From: a bacterium
GTDB taxonomy: Bacteria; Patescibacteriota; Minisyncoccia; Portnoybacterales; GWB1-42-6
DNA: 64,000 nt
Direction: 5' to 3'
Assembly (NCBI GenBank): GCA_043800535.1
Contig: JAZDMV010000023.1
Span: 27,264 to 91,263 of the forward strand
Made by a program: the position numbers and the translations under genes
Part shown: one piece after another, positions 28,444 through 64,000 of the stretch
How the letters are laid out: every line of letters begins with the position of its first letter
Numbering within the stretch: the stretch's first letter is position 1
The notes under the pieces: generated by a model
Databases searched by the model: none
Told to the model about the DNA's origin: nothing
What the model saw: only the letters and a program-made list of their open reading frames with translations

Positions 28444-29085
28444 CTATTTCTCAAAAACAAAGTGGCCAATTATGCCGATGACCTTAGGCAACTGGGGTTT
28501 CGATATGGATGTGGAAATCCGTAACACTGAAAATCCATCTTCCAGCTGGTGCATAGGCCATGACGACCCGATAACATGCCTTTCCCGGCAATCGCGCATA
28601 AAGCTTACCCACTCGTCCGCCGTCATAACATTAATTCCGTAATAATGATATGATCGGCCTGATTCCAGCAAAAATCCTTTTCGCTGCCCAAGCCAGTCAA
28701 GCGCTCTTATCGCTTCGGTTAGCCCCTCCTCACAGCAAGGACACTGGAAATCGATCATTGGAATATGCCTGATTTTTTCGTCATCCATCCTTACAAGAGA
28801 AACCAATCCCATATTTTCGCGTTTCCTTTTTCGGCACAGCTTTGCCGTCGCCTCAAATGATTCTCCCAGTTCATCCTCCCCGATCCTGAACATCCGCACT
28901 CTTCTGTCGTAATTCCGCTCTGGATCATCATACGCTTCCATTCGCGGCAGTCGCCTGCCTGTTCGGTAAAAGATCAGCTCAAACTTTGCCACGCCATTAA
29001 AGCGAAGGATGAAACCGATAACCTGCTCCAGCGAAACATCATCAATTCTTTTGAAGCTTATTGCCCTTGGATCCAACGCCACCAC
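28444..29085 (-). CDS. Hypothetical protein of 213 aa with a CPCC motif.
   Basis: ORF with a GTG/TTG start region preceded by AAGGAGG. No recognised domain. Confidence 0.4.
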   Translation of the reverse strand: MVALDPRAISFKRIDDVSLEQVIGFILRFNGVAKFELIFYRTGRRLPRMEAYDDPERNYDRRVRMFRIGEDELGESFEATAKLCRKRKRENMGLVSLVRMDDEKIRHIPMIDFQCPCCEEGLTEAIRALDWLGQRKGFLLESGRSYHYYGINVMTADEWVSFMRDCRERHVIGSSWPMHQLEDGFSVLRISTSISKPQLPKVIGIIGHFVFEK

Positions 29086-41884: not shown

Positions 41885-42979
41885 CTAAGCGGCTTTCTTA
41901 TGATAAAGATTGAACCGCTTATCCCTGCACTTTCTGAGCCCCCAGACATACTTTTCGCACCACCGCCCATTGCACTTTACCTCCTTGCATGGATCAACTA
42001 AGGGTGCACAAGCCAAAGCAATTGCCCCAGCCACTTCCATAAAAGAGAGGGCTGTTGGTTCCTTATCGGGCGCCGAGAAGCTCCCATTAAGAAGCTGACT
42101 CTTGTCCTTTTTGGAATAATACCAAAAATGGCATTTATCGCAATCCTCGGCCACCTCCATCTCCTGCCAGTCTGGCAGAATAATCTTACGTTTTACCAGC
42201 TCCTGCATCCGTACAATCCTTACCACATCAATAAAATTAATTTTCCGCTGAAAATCTGGCGTGGTGAAGATTGCCGTATTGCCAGTGGTGCGCCGCTGAA
42301 TTATAATATCAACCATGTCGCCAAATCTCCAACGGATCCATTTGTTCATCTTACGGCTATCTGATTCAACAACCGCGATTCCAACCGGACCTTTGATAAT
42401 CCGGCCTTTTTCACGAAATTCGTCTTCGCATTTAAAAAAGCGAATTTGGCCGCGCAGATGACGACGAATCCCATCCACCGCCCAATCAAACGCTGCTGGT
42501 AATTCCTTGTCACTCTCGCAATCATCCCAACCATCATTTAAAAGCGAGTGGATATCAAATGGCATACTTCGGCCTTCATCATCCACCCTTTTGCAAAATT
42601 GCAGGATCTTCTGCAGCTCTGGTTTGTGAGAAATCTGTAAAATTTCCGCCGCCAGATGCGCGCAGGAGGAAATACCTTTTCCGTGCTCGTCTAAAATTCC
42701 TCCCCCGATACCGATCGGGAGAATTTTGTCCTTTAATAAGATCTCGTCACCGCTCTTGCCTTTTGCATCCTCTGGCACGCGGCCTTCCGTCCAAAATTCC
42801 ATCCTTGCCTTTTCAACGCCAGGGAAGATTCCTCTGCCCCACGTCACACATTCTACGTATGCCAGAACCTCATCAAAATGCGGCATATTGTGAGTTGCAA
42901 TTTTCTTGACTGGCCACGGGCCAACACCTCCTAACCGCTTCTGCCACCATTTCAACTCTGTGCTCGCCATTGTCGCCAT
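41885..42979 (-). CDS. MYG1/UPF0160-family metal-dependent hydrolase with a Cys-rich C-terminal tail.
   Basis: IATHNMPHFDEVLAYV resembles the MYG1 N-terminal HxxxHxDE motif. The C-terminus is CDKCHFW...CAPLVDPCKEVKCNGRWCEKY. Confidence 0.5.
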   Translation of the reverse strand: MATMASTELKWWQKRLGGVGPWPVKKIATHNMPHFDEVLAYVECVTWGRGIFPGVEKARMEFWTEGRVPEDAKGKSGDEILLKDKILPIGIGGGILDEHGKGISSCAHLAAEILQISHKPELQKILQFCKRVDDEGRSMPFDIHSLLNDGWDDCESDKELPAAFDWAVDGIRRHLRGQIRFFKCEDEFREKGRIIKGPVGIAVVESDSRKMNKWIRWRFGDMVDIIIQRRTTGNTAIFTTPDFQRKINFIDVVRIVRMQELVKRKIILPDWQEMEVAEDCDKCHFWYYSKKDKSQLLNGSFSAPDKEPTALSFMEVAGAIALACAPLVDPCKEVKCNGRWCEKYVWGLRKCRDKRFNLYHKKAA

Positions 42980-43162: not shown

Positions 43163-43735
43163 ATGTTAAATTACAACGACCTGCGCCCCGGCACTTTTTT
43201 TATTTTGGACGGCCAGCCCTATGAGGTGCTGGAGTTCAGTTTCCTGCGTATGCAGCAAAGAAAACCGGTTGCCCAGACAAAAATAAAGAATCTTATTTCC
43301 GGCAAGATCATCAGCCGTAATTTTCAGCCCAACGAAACTTTTGAAGCCGCCGACATCAACTATAAAGATGTCAAATTTTTATATGCCCATCGCGGCAAAT
43401 TTGTGTTTTCCGAAACCAAAGACCCGTCAAAAAGATTTGAATTGGAAGAACAGCAAATTGGCCAGCTGCACAAGTTTTTAAAACAAAACAGTGAAGTAGA
43501 AATGATAGAATTTGAAGGAAAAATCATTAATACAGCACTCCCGATAAAAATGGAATTTAAGGTGATTGAGGCGCCACCGGGCATAAAAGGCGACACCGCG
43601 CAGGGAGGCGTCAAAGCCGTTAAAATAGAAACGGGCGCTATGATTAACACTCCTTTCTTCATTGAAGAAGGCGACGTCATCCGGATCAACACACAGACCG
43701 GAGATTATACAGAACGGGTAGAAAAGTCAAAATAG
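43163..43735 (+). CDS. efp: Elongation factor P.
   Basis: Three-domain EF-P, 190 aa (…FILDGQPYEVLEF…PGIKGDTAQGGVK…). The loop at the E. coli K34 position reads RMQQRKP rather than KPGKG. Confidence 0.85.
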   Translation: MLNYNDLRPGTFFILDGQPYEVLEFSFLRMQQRKPVAQTKIKNLISGKIISRNFQPNETFEAADINYKDVKFLYAHRGKFVFSETKDPSKRFELEEQQIGQLHKFLKQNSEVEMIEFEGKIINTALPIKMEFKVIEAPPGIKGDTAQGGVKAVKIETGAMINTPFFIEEGDVIRINTQTGDYTERVEKSK

Positions 43736-44253: not shown

Positions 44254-46068
44254 TTATAATTTTACCGCTTCTCCTTCATTCAAAGCGCCTCCATTCCCAT
44301 TTTCTTCTTTCTTTATCTCTGGCTCTTTCTCTTTCTCCTCCTCGGTTCTATCTCCCAAAACCTCGCTTAACGTTTCGCGAAGTTCGCTTAAATTGACCTC
44401 TTTCTTTTTCCGCCTCATATCAGAAAACTTTGACGGCTCTTTTTTTGCCGCCTCGGCTAAAGAAACCGGCGCGCCCGTGTCTTTTATTAAAACTTCGCCC
44501 GAAGCGCTTGGATTTGACGGCCGCCTCGGCGGGTTAGAATTTTGCGCAAAATTATCCCGTCTTGGAAAATCGCCATGCGGCTGCGGCGTCCCTTTTTGCT
44601 CCTGCGAACGCACCTGAGCCAAACAATCCTGACAATAGACGGGCCTGACGCCGTCGGGCTTAAATTTCAAGCGGATTTTTTTGCCACAGCTACTGCAAAC
44701 CGCATCAAACGAGGGCTCTTCTGGATGAAATTCTGCCTTGTGCGCCGGCGAAATTTCGTGGCTCAAGACCATTTTTCCTTCTTTCTCACTTTCTATCACT
44801 CCGCTCCACTTGGCAATTTTTTCTTCAACTTCCTGGCGGCTCGTGCTGTAGCGTTCCCTAGAGACACGAATTATTGTTTCGCGGTGTGAAATTTCCGGCG
44901 GTGCGATCGGCGGCAGAGTCGTGGCGGAAAAGGGCCGCGAAGCAATGCCGTCTATCATTAATTTCAGATATATCTGGGCAAATCCTAAATTAACAAGGTC
45001 ATTAGCCGAAAACTCGGGCATAAATTCTTTTTCAAGAAATTCAGCATCAGTCGCGCCGACCCGAAAAGTAAGCATGCTCCCCACGTTCCCAAAAACCGCA
45101 TCAGCCACCGGTTCAACCATCTGCGTTATATACTGATGCGCCAAAACCAGATCAAGACGGTATTTCCTGGCTTCTGACAAGATCGCGGCAAAAGATTCTG
45201 TGGCAAAATTCTGAAATTCGTCAACGTAAAGATAAAAATCCTTGCGCTCTTCCTCGGGAACATCAATACGCGACATGGCGGCTAATTGCAGCCGAGTAAT
45301 CAGCATTGCGCCCAGCAGCGCCGAATTATCCTCGCCAATGCGGCCTTTGGACAAATTCATTATAAGAATTTTTTGCGAATCCATCGCCTCTCTGATATTG
45401 ATGGATGACGTTGTCTGGCCGACGATATTACGAATTAATGGACTTGTCAAAAACTGACCTACTTTATTTTGAATAGGCGCCACTGCTTCGGCCATGAATC
45501 TGTCCGGATATTTTGCAAATTCATCAACCCAAAATGCCTTAACAACCGGGTCAGCAATTTTTTCCACCACTTTTTTCCGGTATTCTTTATCGACTAAAAT
45601 TCGCATCGTTCCAAGAAGGGTTGAGCCGGGGTATTCAAGAAGCGCTAAAATCGCGTTGCGCAAAACGTATTCCAGCCGCGGCCCCCAGGATTCGGCCCAC
45701 AACTTTTTAAAAACGCCGACCAGGCCAGAGGCGACAAGGTGCCTGTGTCCAGGGTCAACTTTTTCAATGACATTAAAAGCTATCGGAAAATCGAGGTCCG
45801 CCGGATTAAAATATATGACATCATTCAATCTGTTTGACGGAATAAAATCAAGCATCTTCTCGGCAAATTCGCCGTGCGGGTCCACTATCCCGATCCCTTT
45901 GCCCGACTGGATATCCTGAATTGCCATATTTTCCAAAAGCGTAGTTTTGCCCATGCCAGTTTTACCAATAACATAAAAATGGCGGCGGCGATCGGCCGTT
46001 TTTATTCCGAATTTTACCCGCTGGTCGCGGAAATTCGTTTCAGCAAAAAATGTGATATCGTCAGCCAT
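44254..46068 (-). CDS. P-loop ATPase of the FtsK/HerA/VirB4/VirD4 (AAA_10/TrwB-like) family with a C-terminal CxxC-x17-CxxC zinc ribbon and a disordered acidic tail.
   Basis: KTADRRRHFYVIGKTGMGKTTL Walker A, and IVDPHGEF. It is a clear paralog of the ATPase half of 1..2167. Zinc ribbon: CSSCGKKIRLKFKPDGVRPVYCQDC. Confidence 0.75.
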   Translation of the reverse strand: MADDITFFAETNFRDQRVKFGIKTADRRRHFYVIGKTGMGKTTLLENMAIQDIQSGKGIGIVDPHGEFAEKMLDFIPSNRLNDVIYFNPADLDFPIAFNVIEKVDPGHRHLVASGLVGVFKKLWAESWGPRLEYVLRNAILALLEYPGSTLLGTMRILVDKEYRKKVVEKIADPVVKAFWVDEFAKYPDRFMAEAVAPIQNKVGQFLTSPLIRNIVGQTTSSINIREAMDSQKILIMNLSKGRIGEDNSALLGAMLITRLQLAAMSRIDVPEEERKDFYLYVDEFQNFATESFAAILSEARKYRLDLVLAHQYITQMVEPVADAVFGNVGSMLTFRVGATDAEFLEKEFMPEFSANDLVNLGFAQIYLKLMIDGIASRPFSATTLPPIAPPEISHRETIIRVSRERYSTSRQEVEEKIAKWSGVIESEKEGKMVLSHEISPAHKAEFHPEEPSFDAVCSSCGKKIRLKFKPDGVRPVYCQDCLAQVRSQEQKGTPQPHGDFPRRDNFAQNSNPPRRPSNPSASGEVLIKDTGAPVSLAEAAKKEPSKFSDMRRKKKEVNLSELRETLSEVLGDRTEEEKEKEPEIKKEENGNGGALNEGEAVKL

Positions 46069-54672: not shown

Positions 54673-57391
54673 GGCACTTCTTATATTTCTTTCCACTTCC
54701 GCACCAGCAAGGGTCGTTGCGGCCCAGCTTAGCTGGGCTTGAGCCCCGCTGAGCGGGGCGGCCAATGTTTTTGTTACCTGAGGCAGAAGCAGATGGGTCG
54801 GTGCCACGATTTTCGCGCGCTTGCGCCAAAGGCAATTCTTGTCGCGGAGCGTCTTTTGCCAGCACGACTTTATAGATTGATTTTACAATATTTGACTCAA
54901 TCGCCGCCAGCAGATCCCGAAATAATCTGTGGCCTTCGTTTTTGTATTCAACCAGCGGGTCTTTCTGGCCATAAGCTCTTAATCTGACGCTGTCGCGCAG
55001 ATGCTCCATATTATCCAAGTGATCCATCCAGAAAATATCGATCGTCCGCAGGGTTAAAAACTTTTCAATTTCGCGCATGCTTTGCGGCCCGACTTCTTTT
55101 TCTTTCAGTTCATAGGCATTTCTGGCGGCTTCCAGCAAATAATTTATTATCTCATCCCGCTCTTTTAATTCCCGAATTTTTTGCTGGGCGTTAATTGGCA
55201 AAGGAAATATGGAATTTGCCGCTTCATAAATTTCTTTCAGATTCCATTCGCTCGCGTCTCCGGCCGTATTAAATTCCACCAGCCCCCGAACTTCTTTTCC
55301 TATCCATTCGCTGACCTGTTCGCGCAGATCAGCCCGTTTGTCATCGCGAGGAGCCGAGTCATCGAGGTGACGCGGCGATCCCGTGTTATGATTTTCTGCG
55401 GGATTGCTTCGCTCGCCCCCTCCAAGCGGGGTCTCGCTCTCAATGACACGACTTTTGCTTTCCAATATTTCTTTTCTCCATCTATAGATCCTCTCTCTCT
55501 GCTTATTCATCACGTCATCGTAATCAAGGACGTGTTTCCTGACATCAAAATTATATCCCTCGATCTTGGCCTGCGCGCCTTCAATCGCTTTTGATATCAT
55601 TCCGTTTTCTATTGCTTCGTCTTCCGGCATTTTCAAAACTTCCATCATCCGCTTAATTCTGTCCGAGCCAAAAATACGCATTAGATCGTCCTCCAACGAA
55701 ACAAAAAATTGTGAAGAACCCGGGTCGCCTTGACGTCCCGCTCTGCCGCGCAACTGGTTATCAATTCTCCGCGCCTCATGGCGCTCCGTGCCCAAAATAT
55801 GTAGGCCACCTGCCTCCACAACGCCTTCGCCAAGTTTAATATCAACGCCGCGGCCCGCCATATTGGTTGCCACTGTCACCGCGCCTTTTTGCCCTGCCTG
55901 CGCGATGATCTGCGCTTCCTGTTCGTGGTTTTTAGCATTCAAAAGCTGATGCGGAATGCCTTCTTTTTTAAGATAAGCGGATAAAAGTTCGTTTTTTTCT
56001 ATGGAAACAGTGCCCACAAGCACTGGCTGGCCAATTTTGTGTTTCTCTTTTATTTCCCGAACCACGGCGATAAATTTGCCGTTTTCCGTGCGATAGATCC
56101 TGTCACGCAGATCCTGACGCACCATGGGCTTGTTTGTCGGCGCAACCACCACCTCAAGCTTATAAACTTTGAAGAATTCCTCCGCGTTTGTTGCCGCGGT
56201 TCCCGTCATGCCGGCCAATTTATCATACATACGAAAATAATTCTGGAACGTAATTGTGGCCAATGTGCGCGACTCCTGCTGAACTTTAACGCCTTCTTTT
56301 GCCTCGATCGCCTGATGAAGGCCTTCTGAATACCGGCGGCCAAACATCAAACGGCCCGTAAAATCGTCCACAATGATAGCTTCACCATCTTTCACCACAT
56401 AATCCTTATCAAGTTTGAAAAGCACTTCCGCCCGCAATGCCTGTTCTAAATGATGAACATATCTTATGCCGCCTTCATTATAAATATCCATGCCCAGAAT
56501 TTTTTCAACTTTCGCAATGCCTTCCTCGCTTAAGCTAACCGTCCGCATTTTTTCATCAATTGTGTAATCTTCTTCTGCTTTTAATTTGGGCACGATCCTG
56601 GAAAAAGTTTCATATAGTTTTCCGGAATCAGCATCCGGCGCTGAAATAATAAGCGGCGTCCGCGCCTCGTCGATCAAAATTGAATCCACCTCGTCCACTA
56701 TCGCGTAGTGATGGCCTCGCTGAGCCATTTGCGACAGATCCTGCACCATGTTGTCCCGCAGATAATCAAATCCAAATTCGTTATTTGTGCCGTAAGTAAT
56801 ATCTGCCTGATAAGCAAGCGGGCGCGGCACTTCTTTTAAATTTTGCATTTCAACTGTGACTTCGTTTCTGTCCGGGCCGGAATGCGGTTCAAAAAGATAT
56901 GCTTTATCATGCACGACACAGCCGACCGAAACACCGAGTGCCTGATAAATCGGCCCCATCCAGTTGGTGTCACGTTTGGAAAGATAGTCGTTGACAGTGA
57001 CAACGTGCACGCCTTTGCCTTCCAGAGAGTTTAAATAAATTGCCAGGGTTGAGGCCAAAGTTTTGCCTTCGCCTGTTTTCATTTCCGCGATACGCCCCTG
57101 ATGTAAGACAGTCCCACCAAGAAGCTGCACATCAAAATGCCGCTGACCAAGCGTTCGTTTTGAAGCCTCGCGCACCGCGGCAAATGCCTCGGGCAGAAGC
57201 TCGTCCAGCGCCTCACCTCCGCCAACTGGCGGATTCAGGCGCTTACGAAATTCTTCAGTTTTTCCCTTAAGCTGCGGATCAGAAAGCGCCTCAAATTCTT
57301 TTTCCAACCCGTTGATCTTTTCAACCAACGGCATAAGTCTTGAGGCCTGCCGCTCATCCGCACTGCCGAAAATTTTAGATAGAATAGACAT
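54662..57391 (-). CDS. secA: Preprotein translocase ATPase SecA. It carries an in-frame 36-codon palindromic-element insertion and a C-terminal zinc finger.
   Basis: 909 aa. DEAD-like motor, and the C-terminal [15 protein letters not shown]. The segment [38 protein letters not shown] is encoded by 55340..55447. Confidence 0.9.
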
Positions 57392-57569
57392 TGATCAAAA
57401 TTCAGAATTAAGAATTTAGAATAAACTATACTCTTAAATCTTCTTTATCATTCTACTCTCATTTGACAAAAAATCAATCCTTCGACATAGCTTGAAATTA
57501 TGCAAAAATAAAAGGCAGAAAGGCCTTTTTCTATAACAGGCCTCCCTGCCTTATCTCTATAAAAAATCC

Positions 57570-57779
57570 TTACAGCTGCATAGCCTTTGCCACGCGTGGT
57601 ATTATTACTCCCTGAAGATAGTTCCTCCTAAATATCAATTTCTCCTTCTTCCCCTCGGGCAGCGCCTTACGTTTCAATTTTGCCTCAATGGCAGTTACTT
57701 CTCGCTGGTGCCCTTCAAATCTTTGCCACGTCTTTCTTACTATGTTTTCTTCATCTACCATCATTTCACCCCCTAATTT
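57570..57779 (-). CDS. Possible small protein of about 70 aa, of uncertain validity.
   Basis: ORF MMVDEENIVRKTWQRFEGHQREVTAIEAKLKRK... lying between secA and the agmatinase terminator. No recognised domain. Confidence 0.2.
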   Translation of the reverse strand, partial: KLGGEMMVDEENIVRKTWQRFEGHQREVTAIEAKLKRKALPEGKKEKLIFRRNYLQGVIIPRVAKAMQL

Positions 57780-57911
57780 AATTTCCTCTACCAGTCTACC
57801 AGGTCTAGAAAAACTCATTATTCCGCAACCGAAATCATTAACCAAAACACCACCTCCTTCCTCTATTAAAATACACACTCAAACTATATGTGCTGTAAGT
57901 AAAAGAACCAA

Positions 57912-57933
57912 AAATCTGGCCTAAGCCAGATTT
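57912..57933 (-). terminator. Intrinsic terminator after the agmatinase gene.
   Basis: AAATCTGGC-cta-GCCAGATTT, followed on the minus strand by TTTTGGTTCTTTT. Confidence 0.6.
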
Positions 57934-58002
57934 ATTATTACTCGCCTGTTCAATTTTGTCAACAACATTATCAACAACCGCAAAAAGCACAGACGATTAT
58001 CT

Positions 58003-58932
58003 TTAGCTCTGCTTGGCCGCTTCTGCCAGAATGGCCCGCCCGAACTCTGCCACTTTTGAAACAAACACGTATCCGATGATCTTATAAACCAGCTTTGCCG
58101 CTACAAAATCAGGCGCGGCCAGGCCTTCTATCGGCGCCAGCTCCACTACGTCCGCACCAATGATATTTTTCTTGCTTGCCACGGCTTTCAGGATCTCCAT
58201 CGCCTGAATCCACTGCAGTCCACCTGGCTCCGGCGTCCCGGTTGACGGCATTAGGCTTGAATCAAAAACATCAACATCAAAAGTCAGGTAAACATTCTTA
58301 CCAAGAGACCTGACGATCTCCGCGATTTTCCATTTTTTCATGTCTTTGGCCCAGAATGTTTTTATTCTTTTCTGATTTTGCTTCCAGAAACCGAATTCAT
58401 TTGTGTCGGTGCCTATATTTCTTATGCCGACCTGGGTTAAGATAACATTATTTAATTTCAGGCACTGCCGCATAACACAGGCATGGCTAAAAATACTTCC
58501 TTCATATTCGTCGCGCAGGTCCGCGTGCGCGTCAAACTGCAGAATGGAAATTTCTTTATATTTTTTCAGCGCCGCGCGCAGAGCACCCAAAGTCAAAGAA
58601 TGTTCGCCGCCCAAAACAAGCGGGAATTTATCCAGTTTATAAATTTCGTCAGCAATCTGTTCAACCTGCCCAATCGCGGCTTCTTGCGTTTTTTCTATCA
58701 CCGGCTCAGCTAAGGTTGATATCTTAACTTTTTTATAGACATCCGCTTCCAGCTCCTCATCAAACGCTTCAAGGTTCGGGCTCACCTCAATAATTCTTTG
58801 CGGCCCTTTGGCCGTCCCTCTGCCAAAAGTCACGGTTTTTTCCAGCCCGAAAGGCACAATGACAACATCGCTTTTTTCAACCGGAATACTTTCTATATCT
58901 AAAAAGTTTCTTTTTGCCAACCTTAATTCCAT
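58003..58932 (-). CDS. speB: Agmatinase/arginase-family ureohydrolase.
   Basis: DAHADL...FDVDVFD...STGTPEPGG are the manganese-binding motifs. The start was chosen at ATGGAATTAAGG (MELRL), which is preceded by GGAGAA. Confidence 0.75.
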   Translation of the reverse strand: MELRLAKRNFLDIESIPVEKSDVVIVPFGLEKTVTFGRGTAKGPQRIIEVSPNLEAFDEELEADVYKKVKISTLAEPVIEKTQEAAIGQVEQIADEIYKLDKFPLVLGGEHSLTLGALRAALKKYKEISILQFDAHADLRDEYEGSIFSHACVMRQCLKLNNVILTQVGIRNIGTDTNEFGFWKQNQKRIKTFWAKDMKKWKIAEIVRSLGKNVYLTFDVDVFDSSLMPSTGTPEPGGLQWIQAMEILKAVASKKNIIGADVVELAPIEGLAAPDFVAAKLVYKIIGYVFVSKVAEFGRAILAEAAKQS

Positions 58933-58987
58933 GATTCTCCAAACGCACATAAACTTCCGTGCTCCCGAGCACGGAAGTTTATGTCTA

Positions 58988-60079
58988 TTAGTTTTTATAT
59001 TTAACACGGACAGGAAAAGTACTCCAGTCAAAAACCGGCTTCTTTCTCCTTTTAGCGTCCGTTAATGATTTTTCAAACAATGTCTGGGCCACAAACGGCA
59101 AAGCAAGAGTGATGTCAGCAAAACACTGCACTTTCTTTGCGCCTTGGCGAACCTTGCCCCACGATTGCGCCTCCTCAAACGTGCAGCCCGAAAGCCCGCC
59201 CCAGTGCGGCGCATCCGTTGTTATTTGAATGGCGTAGGAGTGCGGCTTGCGGAAACCTTCTTTTTCAGGGAACGGGGTATCACTTTTTATATATGAAGGG
59301 TCGGCCAAATCACCAGTCACCTCAGCTGTCTGCTGAATATAATTTTTAGGCACGCCGCCGCCAAGATACACAACTCCGGTTTTTTCAGAATTACGAGTCA
59401 AATAAGCGGACTCGGACAAATCCTTGATCGTATCAACAATAAATTTTTTATTATTTTTCATCGCGCTGTACCAGACAGCGATCCCAATGTAGCTGTCGCC
59501 AAAAGAAGGAATAAAAACCGGCACGCCTTGCTTGTAAGCGTTTATTAAAATAGAATCGGGGTCTTTGGAAATTTTTGACAATTCCCTGCCCATAAGTTCC
59601 GTGATTTCACGCGAAGAATAAACCTGTCCGTCTTTTAAATACTGCGATGCCATGCGTTTTATGAAAAATTCTCCGGTCAGAAGATCCATTTCTTCTGCCA
59701 GGATGTCATATATCCTGACAATGCCTTCTTTGAATAACCGCATATCGTCCATCACCGGCTCGCCGATAAAATGTTCCCTGCCCAACGTCTCAAAGGTTTC
59801 ATGAAACATCTGGGCGCCGGTTGAGACAATCGCATCAACAAATCTGTTCTTGACCAGAAACGCGATAATTTTGCGCATTCCGGCAGGAATAATCGCGCCG
59901 GAAATTCCAAGCCAAATAGTGATCTTTTTTTCCTTCATCATTTCCCGCCAAATTTTTGTTATCTCGCCAAGCTTTCTTCCCTGAAATCCAGCCGACGCCA
60001 AATTCTCCACCAGATCCGAGGTTAATTGTTCTTTTATTTCAACAGGTTTTGTTTTGTGTTGTAGAAAATCTTTTTTCAA
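58988..60079 (-). CDS. Deoxyhypusine synthase homolog (DHS-like, NAD-dependent aminobutyl transferase).
   Basis: VYLGGGVPKNY matches the eukaryotic and archaeal DHS ILGGGVVKHH region (catalytic Lys conserved). EAQSWGKVR matches EAVSWGKIR. Confidence 0.75.
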   Translation of the reverse strand: MKKDFLQHKTKPVEIKEQLTSDLVENLASAGFQGRKLGEITKIWREMMKEKKITIWLGISGAIIPAGMRKIIAFLVKNRFVDAIVSTGAQMFHETFETLGREHFIGEPVMDDMRLFKEGIVRIYDILAEEMDLLTGEFFIKRMASQYLKDGQVYSSREITELMGRELSKISKDPDSILINAYKQGVPVFIPSFGDSYIGIAVWYSAMKNNKKFIVDTIKDLSESAYLTRNSEKTGVVYLGGGVPKNYIQQTAEVTGDLADPSYIKSDTPFPEKEGFRKPHSYAIQITTDAPHWGGLSGCTFEEAQSWGKVRQGAKKVQCFADITLALPFVAQTLFEKSLTDAKRRKKPVFDWSTFPVRVKYKN

Positions 60080-60085
60080 AGTTGT

Positions 60086-60168
60086 CTACGGATTACGAAT
60101 TTATTACGGATATACGGATTTACATTATGCATTTTATCTGTATATCTGTACTCATCCGTATTCTGTAG
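60086..60168. repeat. AT-rich palindromic intergenic element, family CTACGGATTAC...GTATTCTGTAG (copy 1).
   Basis: It shares its 5' 11 nt and 3' ~40 nt (TTTTATCTGTATATCTGTA..CATCYGTATTCTGTAG) with 62144..62223. Confidence 0.6.
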
Positions 60169-60175
60169 TTAAATT

Positions 60176-61549
60176 TTACCACCCAAACAGCCGTCCCACA
60201 TCTTCAGATGTTTCGCGGCGTCTGGCTATGGTCAGAACTCCGTTTTGCGCTATTATTTTAGCCGGCGAAGAAAGAAGACAGTGGTGCGAAGCGAGAGGAT
60301 CCTGATAGGCACCTGAATCAAAAAGCGTAATATTAAAATATCCGTTGCCGTTCATATCTTCCAGGCGCGGCAATAAAATATAAGCGCCGCCGGCCGTATA
60401 TCGATCGTCAGAGTCACAGGAAGAACCGGCCAGCCAGACTTTTGTCATTTTTTCCGCATCAAGATTAGTCACCGGAACAATGTGCCATTTTTGGTGAACC
60501 GTCCAGGTATCGATCAGATCATTCATGAAACTGCCGTCAATAATGTACCACTTTGAGGCCGCGGCGTTTTGGATCGGCTTTTCGCACAAAACCTTAAAAA
60601 TGGTTATTTGCGTTGGTCCCATAATATACCTGCCCCACTCGGCGATAATATGAGGGTGCGCGATCTCGCGCTCATCGCAAACTTTTTTTATTACTGAGAT
60701 TATCCTTTTTACGATCGTGCTGGGATTATAAAGTTTTTTCTTTTCATAGGGGATTGCCATCCCGCCGCCAATGTCCAAAGTATCCAATGTGGGATTATAT
60801 TTTTTTATCCTGGCATATATCTCAATCGCTTTTCCCACGGCTTCGATTATGCCTTTTTGGTCAGTTGTCTGCGAGCCGACATGATAATGCAAAACTTTCA
60901 AATTCCTGATCCGTCCAAGCTCATAAATTTCTTCCGGCGCCAAGCCGTAACGGTCATTCTTTTTATTCCAGTGGGATTTCGCTTTAATTTCCATTTTCGT
61001 CCTGATACCCACCTCGCCGCGGTAATTTTTCAACGATTCGTATTCATTTTGATCCTCTATGATCGGAATGATGGAAAGCCCTTTTTCTTTCAGCTCCTGG
61101 ATCAGTCCAAGATATTTTTCTGTTTTTGGACCGTTGCAGATGACTCTTATTCTTGAATTAAACTGATCTTGCTCCCAAAGTTTACGCACCAGCCAAAGTT
61201 CATTATATGAGCTTGTTTCCAGGTTGGCGCCTTCGGAGATCAGCGGCAAAACAAATTCTTTGTTCTGATTCACTTTCATCGGATAATGATAGAAGAATCT
61301 CCCTTTATAATCCTGACCCTTGATGTGGAAATTAAAGGTTTGCATCAGGTCTAGATACCGTTTTTCGATCATGAACGGGAATGCGATCTCAAGAGGCGTA
61401 CCGAATTTTGCCACAATGTCGGCGATATTATACTGATAGTTCCCTTCTCTCACAACAAGTTCGTTGTCTTTCGAAATACCAAAAAACTGGGTATTGAATT
61501 CCTCTTTACCCAATTTCCAAAATTTTTCAAACTTTTTTTGTTTTTTCAT
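60176..61549 (-). CDS. speA: PLP-dependent fold-III decarboxylase, SpeA-like arginine decarboxylase.
   Basis: HYPMKVNQNKEFV resembles the SpeA YPIKVNQ motif, and the TIM-barrel-plus-beta-sandwich length is appropriate. A carboxy(nor)spermidine decarboxylase is not excluded. Confidence 0.6.
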   Translation of the reverse strand: MKKQKKFEKFWKLGKEEFNTQFFGISKDNELVVREGNYQYNIADIVAKFGTPLEIAFPFMIEKRYLDLMQTFNFHIKGQDYKGRFFYHYPMKVNQNKEFVLPLISEGANLETSSYNELWLVRKLWEQDQFNSRIRVICNGPKTEKYLGLIQELKEKGLSIIPIIEDQNEYESLKNYRGEVGIRTKMEIKAKSHWNKKNDRYGLAPEEIYELGRIRNLKVLHYHVGSQTTDQKGIIEAVGKAIEIYARIKKYNPTLDTLDIGGGMAIPYEKKKLYNPSTIVKRIISVIKKVCDEREIAHPHIIAEWGRYIMGPTQITIFKVLCEKPIQNAAASKWYIIDGSFMNDLIDTWTVHQKWHIVPVTNLDAEKMTKVWLAGSSCDSDDRYTAGGAYILLPRLEDMNGNGYFNITLFDSGAYQDPLASHHCLLSSPAKIIAQNGVLTIARRRETSEDVGRLFGW

Positions 61550-61637
61550 TTTTTAGCCGAATACCTCCTGTACGAATTTACCGTTGTTCTCTGAATTTTC
61601 AATCCCGCAAACGGGATAAAAGCTTAGAGAAAGTCTT

Positions 61638-62027
61638 TTATTCATTCTTTCTAAATCTCGCCAGCGGCGAAATGCTGTATAATTTTTTAACACTTCGGGC
61701 TCCCCGTTTAAACATTGTTTCTTTCTTTGTCTTAAATTTTCGGATCTCGTCCTCGAGCTCTTCTTTGGCGTCATCCATCATGGAATAAGGGTTGCCGCCA
61801 ATCACTTCGCTTCGGAAAAATTTTCCGGGAATCCGTAAATTTACGTCTGCCTGAAAAATATTTCCTTGCCTCTGACCGCCGACTGCTTTAAAAAATTCAA
61901 TTGTCGCTTCAACCAAATTGGGGTCTACGTTTTCCAAAAACTTTTCTAATTTGCCGATCCTTTTTTCTGCGTAGGAATACAGATCGTCTGAAATTTTTAT
62001 TTCTTTACTTTTTATAATAACACGCAT
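61638..62027 (-). CDS. hpf: Ribosome hibernation promoting factor (short HPF/RaiA).
   Basis: MRVIIKSKEIKISDDLYSYAEKRIGKLEKF... S30AE fold. Confidence 0.8.
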   Translation of the reverse strand: MRVIIKSKEIKISDDLYSYAEKRIGKLEKFLENVDPNLVEATIEFFKAVGGQRQGNIFQADVNLRIPGKFFRSEVIGGNPYSMMDDAKEELEDEIRKFKTKKETMFKRGARSVKKLYSISPLARFRKNE

Positions 62028-62143
62028 AATTTTTTTTACAATAGATTTTTTTATTTTTAAATATTTATTCCCTATTTATTATATTACGCTTGATTTTAAA
62101 AAATGCAACACTTTTTGCAAAAAAATCGCTGTGGATAAAAAAA

Positions 62144-62223
62144 CTACGGATTACAGAATTGTACTTACATACAGAATAAATTTATTTTTATCTGTATATC
62201 TGTAATTCATCTGTATTCTGTAG
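62144..62223. repeat. AT-rich palindromic intergenic element, family CTACGGATTAC...GTATTCTGTAG (copy 2).
   Basis: See 60086..60168. It lies between the murB stop and the hpf start. Confidence 0.6.
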
Positions 62224-62228
62224 CTAAT

Positions 62229-63170
62229 CTAAAATCCGACGTATCGCGTTTCTTCTTCTAAATCAACATCAAATTTTTCTTTTACTTTTTCTTTGCAGAT
62301 TTCTGCCAGTTCCAGAACCTCTTTCGCTTTTGCGCCGCCTGTATTAACTATAAAATTTGCGTGCTCATCGGCAATTTTTGCCCCGCCAACCATCCTGCCC
62401 TTAAGGCCGGCCTGTTCGATAAAATAAGCGGCCGCAATTTTTCCGCCTTTTATTTTGTCTGACAGTTCCGGAAATTTTTTGATCAAAGGATCGCCATTTT
62501 TGACCAAATAGTTTTTAAAAAAGCTCCCTGACGAAGCAAGCGGCGGAATTTTGGCGCTCCGCGTCGTCAAGATTTCTTTCATCCTTTCTTTTGCCTTTCC
62601 TCTTTCATCAACCGCCAATTGCAGCTCAACTTCAAAAATTATTAAATTATCCATTTTTTCTTTAAAAGCACTGCCCCGATAACAAAAACAACAGGCATTT
62701 TTATCAAAATTCACGATCTGGCCGTCTACCATCATTGCTTTTGCACCCTTAACACTTTCTGAAATGCTATGACCATAGGCGCCTGCGTTTCCACAGACAG
62801 CTCCGCCGATAGTGCCGGGAATCCCGATCGCCCATTCCAAACCAGCTAAATCATTGTTGACTGACTCAACCACCAATCTTGCCAGCGGTACACCAGCGTC
62901 GGCTTCTATAATACCAAACTCTTGCCCTGAGCGAAGTCGAAAGGTTGAACTTTGAACTTTTATGACCAGACCGTCAAAACCATCATCGCTGACTAGCAAA
63001 TTACTGCCGCCGCCCATAACAAAATAAGGCACGCCTTTTTCTTTCGCCCATAAAAGCGCCTCCTTAATTTCGCCCGTTGTTTTTGCTTCGTAAAAATATC
63101 TGGCCGGCCCGCCGATGCGAAAAGTCGTGTAATCTGCCAACGAAATATTTTCTTTAATTTGGATTTCCAT
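62229..63170 (-). CDS. murB: UDP-N-acetylenolpyruvoylglucosamine reductase.
   Basis: FAD-binding sequence FRIGGPARYF...GGGSNLL, and a MurB C-terminal domain. Confidence 0.85.
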   Translation of the reverse strand: MEIQIKENISLADYTTFRIGGPARYFYEAKTTGEIKEALLWAKEKGVPYFVMGGGSNLLVSDDGFDGLVIKVQSSTFRLRSGQEFGIIEADAGVPLARLVVESVNNDLAGLEWAIGIPGTIGGAVCGNAGAYGHSISESVKGAKAMMVDGQIVNFDKNACCFCYRGSAFKEKMDNLIIFEVELQLAVDERGKAKERMKEILTTRSAKIPPLASSGSFFKNYLVKNGDPLIKKFPELSDKIKGGKIAAAYFIEQAGLKGRMVGGAKIADEHANFIVNTGGAKAKEVLELAEICKEKVKEKFDVDLEEETRYVGF

Positions 63171-63205
63171 TTTAATTCATCTTACAATAAAATTCGCCAA
63201 ATAAA

Positions 63206-63239
63206 AAGGCCTGGAGAGAAGTTTATCTCCGAGGCCTTT
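63206..63239 (-). terminator. Intrinsic terminator after the saccharopine-dehydrogenase-like gene.
   Basis: AGGCCTGGAGA-gaagtttatc-TCTCCGAGGCCT, followed on the minus strand by TTTTTATTTGG. Confidence 0.55.
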
Positions 63240-63245
63240 GAAAAA

Positions 63246-64000
63246 TCAAAAAACATTTTTGAGCGGTTCCGGGACATCTTCCAGCTCTTTGACTGTCCAT
63301 GGCAATCCCATTACCGCCAATTCCTGCAAAAAAACTTTTGAGCTAAACACTTCATCTTCCGTATTCCTGACTCCCGTCACGCCTTTTCCCCATCTGCCTT
63401 CAAGCAGTAATTTTGCGGCAGTGACTGTGGGAATAGCCGTCGTGTACCCTATCGCGTTACCGCCTGTTTCCAGAAAAGCTTCGCGATGATCACACACCTG
63501 ATATATAAACACGACTTTTTTCTTGCTGCCCTTTATGCCGGATATGACACAGCCGATGCAGGTTTTACCGGTGTAGGTCTGATTGAACTCGTCGCCCTTA
63601 GGCAGGAGCGCCTTTAGAAACTTGATCGGAACGATCTGGTGGCCATCAAACTCAACTGGCTCAATCCCAATCATTCCAATGTTTTTGAGGACCCGCAGAT
63701 ACCAGAGATAGGAGTCACCAAAGGTCATAAAGAAACGGATGCGTTTCAGGTGCGGCAGATGCTTGACCAAACTTTCCATCTCCTCGTGATAGATCATGCA
63801 TGTTTGTTGCCGTCCTGCTTCGGGATAAAAAAAATCAAATTTGACAGGGTTTTCATCGATCAAACGGCCCCGTTCCTTCCATTCTCCGTTCTCCCAAAAA
63901 CGGATCGGCAGGATCAGTTCCCGCAAATTTATTTCCGGGTCAAAGTTAGGAGCAAATTTGAATTTTGCGTCTTTGGTGCCGGCATTACAATCCAAGATGT
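63246..64000 (-). CDS. Saccharopine-dehydrogenase-family protein (bacterial homospermidine synthase or carboxynorspermidine dehydrogenase-like). Only the C-terminal part is visible, and the gene continues beyond the window end.
   Basis: The C-terminal domain resembles the SDH / CANSDH / homospermidine-synthase fold, and the context is a polyamine cluster. This is a weak by-eye assignment. Confidence 0.35.
   Translation of the reverse strand, partial: ILDCNAGTKDAKFKFAPNFDPEINLRELILPIRFWENGEWKERGRLIDENPVKFDFFYPEAGRQQTCMIYHEEMESLVKHLPHLKRIRFFMTFGDSYLWYLRVLKNIGMIGIEPVEFDGHQIVPIKFLKALLPKGDEFNQTYTGKTCIGCVISGIKGSKKKVVFIYQVCDHREAFLETGGNAIGYTTAIPTVTAAKLLLEGRWGKGVTGVRNTEDEVFSSKVFLQELAVMGLPWTVKELEDVPEPLKNVF

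What the first reader, a model, noticed from the sequence alone, without database searches (positions are those of the whole stretch)
58003..64000. Polyamine cluster with a deoxyhypusine-synthase homolog flanked by SpeA-like decarboxylase and agmatinase, plus a saccharopine-dehydrogenase-like gene
The DHS homolog conserves the catalytic-lysine region (GGGVPKNY) and the EAQSWGKVR motif of eukaryotic and archaeal DHS. DHS linked to agmatinase is the arrangement used in archaeal aIF5A hypusination via agmatine, and the DHS family also gave rise to homospermidine synthases. The EF-P in this window (43163..43735) lacks the usual KPGKG modification loop (RMQQRKP instead). The bacterial-type SDH-family homospermidine or carboxynorspermidine enzyme at the window edge adds a second polyamine route. 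Whether the DHS homolog makes (homo)spermidine-like polyamines or modifies a translation factor is open.
Basis: partly seen in the sequence, partly recalled or inferred. Interest (0 to 1): 0.55.

Follow-up and report, generated by a model that had tools for sequence, protein, structure and literature searches.

The report
Agmatine-based homospermidine operon in a CPR bacterium
This is most likely an ordinary polyamine operon that makes homospermidine by joining two agmatine molecules, a pathway described in 2024-2026, here in an ultra-small Portnoybacteria-type bacterium; nothing links it to modification of the translation factor EF-P.

Summary
The genes are real. On the minus strand lie a short alanine-racemase-fold arginine decarboxylase (60176-61549), a deoxyhypusine-synthase (DHS) family protein (58988-60079) and an agmatinase-family ureohydrolase (58003-58932), followed by a terminator-like hairpin. 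HPF and MurB come next, and then the C-terminal 251 codons of a carboxyspermidine/carboxyaminopropylagmatine-dehydrogenase-like gene, not a homospermidine synthase.

The DHS homolog keeps the catalytic lysine (K309, in SWGK). Its substrate pocket is of the published agmatine-coupling SpeY/CdmS type: human D243 is Ile, D316 is Leu and H288 is Asn. In a neighbour-joining tree it separates with 100% bootstrap from human and Pyrococcus DHS. It groups with curated SpeY-type enzymes and with a mostly archaeal clade annotated "DHS 2".

Portnoybacteria relatives keep the same operon, but most carry a pyruvoyl arginine decarboxylase in the decarboxylase slot. This argues that the shared intermediate is agmatine.

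The EF-P loop is indeed non-canonical, with Gln at the tip. All 120 nearest EF-P clusters have the same loop, including lineages for which the search returned no matching DHS.

Best reading: arginine → agmatine → bis(guanidino)homospermidine → homospermidine. It is a new member of a known kind, from an uncharacterised subclade.

The parts
60176..61549 (-). Short (457 aa) alanine-racemase-fold PLP decarboxylase, predicted arginine decarboxylase. It would supply agmatine.
   Evidence: PF02784 and PF00278. Best NCBIfam matches are biosynthetic ADC NF003763 (198 bits) and TIGR01273, but only over the N-terminal half of those 620-640-aa models. Best PDB matches are ADCs 3nzq, 3nzp and 3n2o. The size fits the 'ancestral form' AR-fold ADC that lacks the four-helix bundle (PMC8503589, PMC13625781). 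An ortholog sits in the same slot in Portnoybacteria locus L092 (956 bits). Other relatives have a pyruvoyl ADC there instead (NF009064, 211 bits against a cutoff of 207). The motifs YPMKVNQ, DIGGGM and SSCDSDD resemble SpeA motifs; that comparison rests on my memory.
58988..60079 (-). DHS-family enzyme, predicted SpeY/CdmS-like agmatine homocoupling enzyme (G44G synthase).
   Evidence: PF01916 at 308 bits. Catalytic Lys K309, W307 and E303 are conserved. The pocket has I200 (human D243), L296 (D316), N246 (H288) and Q285 (Y305), as in curated G44G synthases and as reported for CdmS. In the NJ tree the SpeY side is separated from human and Pyrococcus DHS with 100% bootstrap. The protein falls below every NCBIfam equivalog cutoff: NF002006 401 against 434, and NF002699 239 against 500.
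58003..58932 (-). Agmatinase-family ureohydrolase, predicted to hydrolyse G44G (and possibly N1-aminopropylagmatine) to the free triamine.
   Evidence: PF00491 at 216 bits; TIGR01230 at 227 bits against a cutoff of 174. The Mn-ligand motifs GGEHS, DAHAD and DVDVFD are visible in the translation. It lies immediately downstream of the DHS homolog in CPR relatives and in WOR-1, DPANN, Planctomycetota and Actinomycetota loci. Best PDB matches are 3lhl and 3pzl.
63246..64000 (-). C-terminal 251 codons of a carboxyspermidine / carboxyaminopropylagmatine dehydrogenase-like gene, cut by the window end. It marks a probable second, aspartate-semialdehyde-dependent triamine route.
   Evidence: PF16653, and NF043000 positions 175-405. 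It is 82% identical to the 418-aa ortholog in L001. That ortholog matches 4ina, 4rl6, 8h4z and 8deb at 340-392 bits. The YHEE motif (the E228-equivalent CAPADH signature) is present. In relatives an NspC equivalog (TIGR01047, 508 bits) follows it; that gene is absent from this window.
61638..63170 (-). Intervening housekeeping genes in the same direction, not part of the pathway: ribosome hibernation factor HPF (61638-62027) and MurB (62229-63170).
   Evidence: PF02482, and PF01565 + PF02873. The same order SDH-(NspC)-MurB-HPF-ADC-DHS-AGM-SecA is found in L001, L013, L091 and L092.
57912..57933 (-). Terminator-like hairpin (9-bp stem followed by a T-rich tail), 70 nt after the ureohydrolase stop. 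Probable 3' end of the operon.
   Evidence: This is a consensus scan only.
58947..58984 (.). Perfect 17-bp-stem hairpin in the 55-nt gap between the DHS stop and the ureohydrolase start. Role unknown.
   Evidence: It is unique within the window and has no Rfam match. Relatives have a 12-nt gap or overlapping genes at this position.
43163..43735 (+). EF-P with a Gln-tip loop (FLRMQQRKP). Examined as a possible DHS target and judged unlinked.
   Evidence: EF-P domains, and NF001810 at 171 bits against a cutoff of 161. Q32 aligns with E. coli K34. All 120 nearest 90%-clusters have the same loop, as do 44 of 150 representatives of 50%-clusters.

Best explanation
The three genes at 58003-61549 form an agmatine-dependent homospermidine operon of the SpeY (diagmatine) type.

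1. The short AR-fold decarboxylase converts arginine to agmatine.
2. The DHS-family enzyme uses NAD to oxidise one agmatine, carries its 4-guanidinobutyl moiety as an imine on K309, and transfers it to the primary amine of a second agmatine. The product is N1,N9-bis(guanidino)homospermidine (G44G, caldomycin).
3. The agmatinase-family ureohydrolase removes both urea groups to give homospermidine.

The SDH-family gene at the window edge most likely starts a parallel route from the same agmatine pool (agmatine + aspartate semialdehyde → carboxyaminopropylagmatine → N1-aminopropylagmatine → spermidine). That route would share the ureohydrolase.

Shown here: gene identities, conserved synteny, the ADC swap, the pocket residues and the tree position. 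Inferred: every enzymatic activity and every substrate specificity.
For: - **Published biochemistry.** T. thermophilus CdmS and seven further SpeY homologs from diverse phyla all make G44G from agmatine, and SpeB homologs convert it to homospermidine. Clusters of ADC + speY + speB are described with AR-fold 'ancestral', pyruvoyl and SpeD-derived ADCs.
- **Synteny.** Portnoybacteria relatives at 77-87% identity keep HPF-ADC-DHS-ureohydrolase-SecA.
- **Non-orthologous displacement.** The ADC slot holds the AR-fold enzyme in the window and in L092. It holds a pyruvoyl arginine decarboxylase equivalog in L001, L011, L012, L013, L017 and L091. The sister WOR-1 clade uses a SpeD-like gene. Only agmatine production is common to the three.
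- **Pocket.** Kobayashi et al. name Phe204 and Leu286 in CdmS, against Asp243 and Asp316 in human DHS, as the differing pocket residues. The window protein has I200 and L296 at those positions, plus N246 for the DHS proton-relay His288. K309, W307 and E303 are conserved.
- **Tree.** The split between human + Pyrococcus DHS + HVO_B0182 and the NF002699-validated SpeY types + the window's clade has 100% bootstrap. The CPR clade has 100%, and CPR + WOR-1 has 82%.
- **No protein substrate nearby.** No aIF5A or EF-P gene lies in the flanks of any of the 170 DHS loci.
Against: - The protein does not reach the curated G44G-synthase cutoff (NF002699, 239 against 500). Its nearest family, NF002006 (401 against 434), is named 'deoxyhypusine synthase' and has no characterised member that I could identify.
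- Canonical archaeal DHS was sampled only through P. horikoshii, so the tree does not show where aIF5A-modifying archaeal enzymes sit relative to this clade.
- Ser67 of CdmS, a proposed guanidino ligand, corresponds to Ala62 here.
- An ADC-DHS-ureohydrolase trio would equally be needed for an agmatine-dependent protein deoxyhypusination. Context alone therefore fixes the donor, not the acceptor.
- One metagenomic contig (L032) carries an NF002006-like paralog beside a complete NF002699-type operon. This hints that the two clades may not be isofunctional.
- There are no activity data for any CPR enzyme.
Confidence: 0.8

Rival explanations
1. The DHS homolog uses agmatine as donor but couples it to a different amine acceptor, such as N1-aminopropylagmatine, spermidine or putrescine. 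The operon's end product would then be another, or an additional, polyamine (for example aminopropylhomospermidine or homospermine-type compounds), or G44G itself would be the end product.
For: A CAPADH/CASDH-like gene and, in relatives, NspC lie in the same gene string, and in L014 directly beside the DHS gene. Other amines would therefore be available. The enzyme belongs to an uncharacterised subclade with a CPR-specific 15-residue insertion next to the K245/N246 motif, and has Ala where CdmS has Ser67. L032 holds two paralogs side by side. Some SpeY organisms accumulate N1-aminopropylhomospermidine.
Against: Every SpeY tested so far homocouples agmatine. Thermus CdmS ignored putrescine and spermidine. 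This window has no NspC.
Confidence: 0.1
2. The DHS homolog modifies a protein lysine (EF-P or another factor) with a 4-guanidinobutyl group from agmatine. The ureohydrolase then trims this to a deoxyhypusine-like residue. This would be a bacterial version of the pathway proposed for haloarchaeal aIF5A.
For: The closest non-CPR relatives are archaeal proteins annotated as DHS. A DHS plus agmatinase-like enzyme route was proposed for Haloferax aIF5A. Volkwein et al. speculated that bacterial DHS-like proteins might modify EF-P. The EF-P here lacks the canonical KPGKG loop and has a Lys two residues from the tip. No EpmA, EarP or second EF-P is present in the window.
Against: The EF-P tip residue is Gln. 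The nearby K34 is Arg in several members of the same loop family. The identical loop occurs in all 120 nearest EF-P clusters, down to 67% identity, whereas CPR-type DHS homologs stop at 72% and then drop to 49% (archaeal). EF-P is 15 kb away and is never found beside DHS in 170 loci. The DHS proton-relay His288 and Asp243 are replaced, as in SpeY. Bacteria have no aIF5A.
Confidence: 0.04
3. A classical putrescine route. ADC plus a true agmatinase make putrescine. The SDH-like enzyme and a decarboxylase make spermidine. The DHS homolog then makes homospermidine from spermidine plus putrescine, as eukaryotic DHS and plant homospermidine synthase do.
For: The ureohydrolase passes the TIGR01230 agmatinase cutoff. 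Eukaryotic DHS can make homospermidine from spermidine and putrescine.
Against: The pocket lacks both acidic residues that bind the spermidine amino group (D243, D316) and lacks His288. CdmS does not use putrescine or spermidine. SpeY-associated SpeB homologs tested were inactive on agmatine, and a true agmatinase would drain SpeY's substrate. The SDH-like ortholog resembles agmatine-specific CAPADH enzymes more than CASDH at two of three signature positions.
Confidence: 0.04

Closest known systems
[quoted passage not shown]
   Same: DHS fold and conserved catalytic Lys. Hydrophobic residue at human D243 and Leu at D316. Asn at H288. An insertion of about 8 residues after PKN[FY]xQ. Operon partners are an ADC and a SpeB-type ureohydrolase.
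   Different: Only 30-35% identical to NF002699-type sequences, and 239 bits against a cutoff of 500. It sits in a separate, mostly archaeal clade (NF002006-like). It has an extra 15-residue CPR-specific insertion (residues ~260-274) and Ala62 where CdmS has Ser67. It is untested biochemically.
ADC-speY-speB gene clusters of Winogradskyella algicola (ancestral AR-fold ADC), Caldilinea aerophila (pyruvoyl ADC) and Capsulimonas corticalis / Sericytochromatia (SpeD-derived ADC), from PMC13625781
   Same: The same three-gene logic. The window matches the Winogradskyella type, its close relatives match the Caldilinea type, and the sister WOR-1 clade matches the SpeD type.
   Different: Here two ADC folds alternate within one narrow lineage at the same chromosomal position. 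The operon is embedded between HPF and SecA, next to CAPADH/NspC-type genes. The host is a reduced-genome CPR bacterium.
Canonical deoxyhypusine synthase (human DHS; P. horikoshii 7cmc; archaeal DHS-aIF5A complex 8put)
   Same: Same Pfam family, NAD-dependent chemistry, catalytic Lys in SWGK, and conserved W327 and E323 equivalents.
   Different: 25-31% identity. H288, D243, Y305, S105 and N106 are replaced. No aIF5A/eIF5A substrate exists in bacteria. Separated by a long branch with 100% support.
Carboxyaminopropylagmatine pathway (CAPADH, CAPADC, APAUH; Synechocystis, H. pylori, S. pneumoniae, Bacteroides; PMC10599626)
   Same: The SDH-like ortholog in L001 matches Wolinella, H. pylori, S. 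pneumoniae and B. fragilis enzymes at 340-392 bits. It keeps F113- and E228-equivalent signature residues. In relatives it is followed by an NspC equivalog, and ADC and a ureohydrolase are nearby.
   Different: The N104-equivalent is Cys. Only the C-terminal half lies in this window. The decarboxylase gene is missing between the SDH-like gene and MurB here. Availability of aspartate semialdehyde in this organism is unknown.
Bacterial homospermidine synthase (HSS, Blastochloris viridis 4TVB)
   Same: Same broad saccharopine-dehydrogenase superfamily as the edge gene, and the same end product as the SpeY route.
   Different: No PDB hit to HSS at E <= 1e-3 for the full-length ortholog. HSS needs putrescine, and the published work describes HSS and SpeY routes as mutually exclusive.
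EF-P subfamilies (EpmA-type KPGKG, EarP-type Arg, unmodified PGKGP)
   Same: Three-domain EF-P with the same loop length as E. coli.
   Different: Gln at the tip, within a conserved [RK]MQQR[KR]P loop. Gln-tip EF-Ps were listed as a minor type without the P32 proline by Volkwein et al.. Their modification status is unknown.

Membership tests
DHS superfamily (Pfam PF01916) | Full-length match to the DS domain | tested here: met
   308 bits, residues 22-332 on profile positions 1-286 of 288.
DHS superfamily (Pfam PF01916) | Catalytic lysine that forms the enzyme-imine intermediate (human K329), with flanking W327 and E323 | tested here: met
   K309, W307 and E303 in EAQSWGKVR.
SpeY / CdmS G44G synthase | Reaches the curated equivalog model NF002699 | tested here: not met
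   239 bits against a cutoff of 500. The Trichormus, Sphingomonas and L032 reference sequences score 564-592.
SpeY / CdmS G44G synthase | Agmatine-type pocket: a hydrophobic residue for human D243 and Leu for D316 (Phe204 and Leu286 in CdmS) | tested here: met
   I200 and L296. The criterion comes from PMC10981699.
SpeY / CdmS G44G synthase | Genomic linkage to an arginine decarboxylase and a SpeB-type ureohydrolase (or AIH/NCPAH) | tested here: met
   Window gene order. Conserved in L001, L011-L013, L017, L091 and L092, with ADC fold swapping.
SpeY / CdmS G44G synthase | Phylogenetic placement on the SpeY side of the DHS/SpeY split | tested here: met
   100% bootstrap for the split in an NJ tree of 88 sequences and 339 columns. 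Canonical archaeal DHS is thinly sampled.
SpeY / CdmS G44G synthase | Produces G44G from two agmatines | not testable with these tools
   Needs heterologous expression in E. coli ΔspeB, or an enzyme assay.
Canonical deoxyhypusine synthase (protein-modifying) | Reaches a curated DHS equivalog model | tested here: not met
   TIGR00321 286 against 304; NF002006 401 against 434; NF002630 254 against 364.
Canonical deoxyhypusine synthase (protein-modifying) | Invariant His288 proton relay and Asp243 spermidine ligand | tested here: not met
   N246 and I200.
Canonical deoxyhypusine synthase (protein-modifying) | A substrate factor with lysine at the hairpin tip (eIF5A/aIF5A type), often encoded nearby in archaea | tested here: not met
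   The EF-P tip is Q32. No aIF5A or EF-P lies in the flanks of 170 DHS loci (query validated). Only 64 kb of this genome could be searched.
Agmatinase / ureohydrolase (PF00491, TIGR01230) | Family model and metal-ligand motifs | tested here: met
   227 bits against a cutoff of 174. GGEHS, DAHAD and DVDVFD are present.
Diagmatine ureohydrolase (G44G-specific SpeB) | Active on G44G and inactive on agmatine | not testable with these tools
   No sequence signature is published. The assignment is inferred from linkage only.
AR-fold arginine decarboxylase, ancestral short form | SpeA-like catalytic domains without the four-helix bundle or C-terminal extension | tested here: inconclusive
   457 aa. 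SpeA models match only residues 17-326, and all scores are below cutoffs. The best PDB hits are ADCs. Positional equivalence with pyruvoyl ADC in relatives supports ADC activity. Substrate specificity was not tested.
CAPADH (carboxyaminopropylagmatine dehydrogenase) | Signature residues N104, F113 and E228 (Synechocystis numbering) | tested here: inconclusive
   The L001 ortholog has C, F and E. The window fragment shows only the E (YHEE). NF043000 scores 298 against 800 for the full-length ortholog.
Bacterial homospermidine synthase (HSS) | Sequence similarity to characterised HSS (4TVB type) | tested here: not met
   No HSS chain among the PDB hits at E <= 1e-3. The top hits are CASDH/CAPADH-type.
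EF-P, EpmA- or EarP-modified types | K or R at the loop tip, with the cognate enzyme encoded | tested here: not met
   Q32 at the tip. No EpmA, EarP or EpmC domain in window ORFs of at least 150 aa. The only tRNA-synt_2 protein has an anticodon-binding domain. The rest of the genome was not available.

The most novel reading that the evidence does not exclude
The enzyme belongs to an uncharacterised, mostly archaeal DHS-family clade (NF002006-like, 'DHS 2') that has an agmatine-type donor pocket. If the acceptor in this clade is a protein lysine rather than a second agmatine, this CPR lineage would carry out an agmatine-dependent, hypusine-like modification of a bacterial protein. The target could be K34 of its Gln-tip EF-P or another factor, with the ureohydrolase finishing the modification.
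Probability: 0.04. Interest if true: 0.85.

Novelty: new member of a known kind. Interest (0 to 1): 0.3.

Why it matters
The finding itself extends the recently defined agmatine/SpeY homospermidine pathway to Candidate Phyla Radiation bacteria. It suggests that a genome-reduced organism keeps one, and perhaps two, agmatine-based triamine routes.

Three points could interest polyamine specialists:

- Within one narrow lineage, two unrelated arginine decarboxylases alternate at the same chromosomal position. This is a clean natural example of non-orthologous displacement that identifies agmatine as the pathway intermediate.
- The CPR enzyme sits in a clade that NCBI names 'deoxyhypusine synthase'. 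The clade includes methanogen 'DHS 2' and DPANN proteins, and it carries the SpeY pocket. This bears on the open question in PMC13625781 of whether archaea encode agmatine-dependent DHS homologs.
- The cluster combines SpeY-type and CAPADH-type genes around one ureohydrolase.

None of this changes the basic picture.

Tried and rejected
- **Source contig.** Exact-sequence look-ups of the window's DHS, ADC and the identical protein P0001 found nothing on record. The remainder of the SDH-like gene and the rest of the 191,907-bp contig could not be read.
- **Characterised SpeY in the same subclade.** A third protein-database search used a profile of bacterial DHS homologs that have SpeD-like and ureohydrolase neighbours. 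It aimed to pull in cultured, characterised SpeY proteins (Capsulimonas, Caldilinea) and returned only MAG proteins. Whether any tested SpeY belongs to this subclade stays unknown.
- **Haloarchaeal references.** The haloarchaeal plasmid DHS genes were fetched as canonical references. HVO_B0182 proved to be the second paralog, not the canonical enzyme, and the Natrinema and Halogeometricum genes are of the same ~325-aa length and were not scanned. Canonical archaeal DHS is therefore represented only by P. horikoshii. 8put did not rank high enough to be printed.
- **RNA elements.** Rfam found no riboswitch or known RNA in 57300-64000.
- **Base composition.** The cluster shows no composition anomaly: 43-47% GC against 44% for the window.
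- **SDH-like gene as HSS.** Considered and rejected.
- **Class II aaRS at 10932-12371 as EpmA.** Considered and rejected, because it has the anticodon-binding OB domain.
- **CANSDC-like, pyruvoyl ADC or second EF-P elsewhere in the window.** tblastn found none.
- **Structure prediction.** Not run. The fold is not in doubt, and model coordinates could not be used to measure pocket geometry.

Full report
**What is there**

The end of the window carries a run of genes on the minus strand:

- An SDH-family gene, of which only the C-terminal 251 codons are in the window (63246-64000).
- MurB (62229-63170) and the ribosome hibernation factor HPF (61638-62027).
- A 457-aa alanine-racemase-fold PLP decarboxylase (60176-61549).
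- A 363-aa DHS-family protein (58988-60079; PF01916, 308 bits).
- A 309-aa agmatinase-family ureohydrolase (58003-58932; TIGR01230, 227 bits against a cutoff of 174).
- A terminator-like hairpin (57933-57912), a small ORF, and SecA.

The other ORFs of at least 150 aa in the window encode housekeeping functions (cell wall, MreB, aaRS, ribosomal proteins, Sec) or have no Pfam match. None is a further polyamine gene, and none resembles EpmA or EarP. The organism is a Candidate Phyla Radiation bacterium. The identical DHS and EF-P proteins are on record from one 191,907-bp MAG contig labelled 'bacterium'. The nearest named genomes are Candidatus Portnoybacteria.

**The DHS homolog**

Aligned to a human DHS sequence that I verified against the PDB, K329 corresponds to K309 in EAQSWGKVR. 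GGGVPKNY holds the K287/H288 positions, and His288 is replaced by Asn.

The pocket differs from canonical DHS in the way published for the agmatine-coupling enzyme. Kobayashi et al. single out Phe204 and Leu286 of Thermus CdmS, against Asp243 and Asp316 of human DHS. The window protein has Ile200 and Leu296 at those positions. [quoted passage not shown]

I built a neighbour-joining tree of 88 sequences (339 columns, 100 bootstraps):

- The split between human DHS, P. horikoshii DHS and Haloferax HVO_B0182 on one side, and SpeY-type plus the window's clade on the other, has 100% support and a long branch.
- The CPR clade has 100% support.
- Its sister group, with 82% support, contains a WOR-1 bacterium whose gene sits between a SpeD-like gene and an arginase-family gene.

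The protein does not pass any equivalog cutoff: NF002006 'DHS' 401 against 434, TIGR00321 286 against 304, NF002699 239 against 500. Its nearest non-CPR relatives, at 43-49% identity, are archaeal proteins (Methanocella and Methanolobus 'DHS 2', DPANN, Thermoproteota) and various bacterial MAG proteins. I found no characterised member of that clade.

**Context**

In Portnoybacteria relatives (DHS 77-87% identical) the order SDH-like, NspC, MurB, HPF, ADC, DHS, ureohydrolase, SecA is conserved. The decarboxylase slot is the informative part:

- The window and L092 have the AR-fold enzyme (956 bits to each other).
- L001, L011, L012, L013, L017 and L091 have a pyruvoyl-dependent arginine decarboxylase there (NF009064 above cutoff).
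- The WOR-1, Actinomycetota, Anaerolineae and Planctomycetota relatives have a SpeD-like gene.

These are the same three ADC folds described for speY clusters by Li et al.. The only thing the three have in common is that they make agmatine. None of the 170 related loci holds an aIF5A or EF-P gene in its flanks (the aIF5A query was validated). Canonical euryarchaeal DHS, by contrast, clusters with aIF5A and an agmatinase-like gene.

**Mechanism**

By analogy with CdmS/SpeY:

1. Arginine is decarboxylated to agmatine.
2. The DHS homolog oxidises agmatine with NAD, holds the 4-guanidinobutyl group as an imine on K309, and passes it to a second agmatine. The product is G44G.
3. The ureohydrolase releases two ureas to give homospermidine.

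The gene identities, synteny, pocket and tree are shown here. All activities are inferred.

**The SDH-like gene**

It is not a homospermidine synthase. Its 82%-identical full-length ortholog in L001 matches the Wolinella, S. pneumoniae, H. pylori and B. fragilis enzymes at 340-392 bits, with no HSS hit. Xi et al. showed the H. pylori, S. pneumoniae and Bacteroides orthologs to be agmatine-specific CAPADH, defined by N104, F113 and E228. The CPR ortholog has Cys, Phe and Glu at those positions, and the window fragment shows the YHEE motif.

In relatives an NspC equivalog follows (TIGR01047, 508 bits). In this window that gene is absent, and MurB starts 75 nt after the SDH-like stop. The likely picture is a second, aspartate-semialdehyde-dependent route from the same agmatine pool to spermidine. 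The single ureohydrolase could serve both routes, since B. subtilis SpeB, an aminopropylagmatine hydrolase, handles G44G very well. This part is the least certain.

**EF-P**

The loop is non-canonical. Q32 aligns with E. coli K34, within FLRMQQRKP. It is not peculiar to this genome:

- All 120 nearest 90%-identity clusters (100% down to 67% identity; Portnoybacteria, Parcubacteria, Patescibacteria) carry [FLMV]R[MK]QQR[KR]P.
- 44 of the 150 nearest 50%-cluster representatives have Gln at the tip.

Judging from two shared contigs, EF-P and DHS diverge at broadly similar rates in this lineage (92% against 81%, and 82% against 82%). CPR-type DHS homologs stop at 72% identity and then drop to 49% (archaeal), while EF-Ps with the identical loop continue well beyond that point. 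This suggests that the loop pre-dates the DHS gene and outlasts it. Gln-tip EF-Ps and the idea that bacterial DHS-like proteins might modify EF-P are both already in the literature. The SpeY biochemistry has since supplied a simpler role.

One caveat remains. An ADC-DHS-ureohydrolase trio and an agmatine-type pocket define the donor, not the acceptor. A protein acceptor is therefore not formally excluded, and I give it about 4%.

**Verdict**

The locus is a new member, from an uncharacterised and archaeal-related subclade, of the known agmatine/SpeY homospermidine pathway, probably coupled to a CAPA-type spermidine route. Interest is modest.

Noticed in passing
L091:5237-7970 (also L013:10616-13388; L092:9419-12165; L015:2505-2936; L016:2426-3064): In several Portnoybacteria relatives three extra genes sit inside or just after the DHS-ureohydrolase pair. 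They are an MprF-C-terminal-like GNAT (PF09924), a SET-domain protein (PF00856) and a PurD-like ATP-grasp ligase (PF01071 + PF02843). None is present in the 64-kb window. They might modify the polyamine or a protein, or be unrelated cargo.
   Followed up: partly
L032:745-4625: One metagenomic contig, planctomycete-like in the tree, carries two DHS-family paralogs side by side. An NF002006-like gene (745-1791, +) converges on a complete operon of pyruvoyl ADC, ureohydrolase and NF002699-type SpeY on the minus strand. This hints that the two clades may not have identical functions.
   Followed up: partly
window 58947-58984: A perfect 17-bp-stem, 4-nt-loop hairpin fills the 55-nt gap between the DHS stop and the ureohydrolase start. 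Relatives have a 12-nt gap or overlapping genes there. It is unique in the window and matches no Rfam family.
   Followed up: partly
P0041, P0092, P0105, P0119; L003, L004, L093 (NCBIfam NF002006 members): Proteins that pass NCBI's 'deoxyhypusine synthase' equivalog NF002006 carry the SpeY/CdmS-type pocket (D243→hydrophobic, D316→Leu, H288→Asn). They include methanogen 'DHS 2', DPANN proteins and a WOR-1 bacterium. In DPANN and WOR-1 they sit next to an arginase-family gene. They may be agmatine-using enzymes that are misnamed as DHS.
   Followed up: partly
window 43163-43735 and P0121-P0390: EF-P with Gln at the loop tip, in a conserved [RK]MQQR[KR]P motif, is a large subfamily in Patescibacteria. 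It accounts for 44 of the 150 nearest 50%-cluster representatives. A further 51 have Arg in non-EarP-like loops such as HLGRGG and KMGRGG. How these EF-Ps work without a known modification is open.
   Followed up: partly
window 63170-63246 versus L001:6286-7473 and L092:1938-3158: The carboxynorspermidine-decarboxylase equivalog (NspC) lies between the SDH-like gene and MurB in relatives. It is cleanly absent at that position in the window, and tblastn finds no copy elsewhere in the 64 kb. In L014 the SDH-like gene abuts the DHS gene directly. The module is being rearranged within this lineage.
   Followed up: partly
window 41885-42979 (-): A 364-aa protein with no Pfam match is transcribed divergently from efp. 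It has a Cys-rich C-terminus and H..DE / DEHG motifs that, from memory, resemble metal-dependent hydrolases.
   Followed up: no
window 44254-46068 (-) and 28444-29085 (-): A TraG/VirD4-like coupling-protein ATPase with a treble-clef zinc finger, and an archaeo-eukaryotic-primase-like protein, are present. These may be remnants of mobile or conjugative DNA in this small genome.
   Followed up: no
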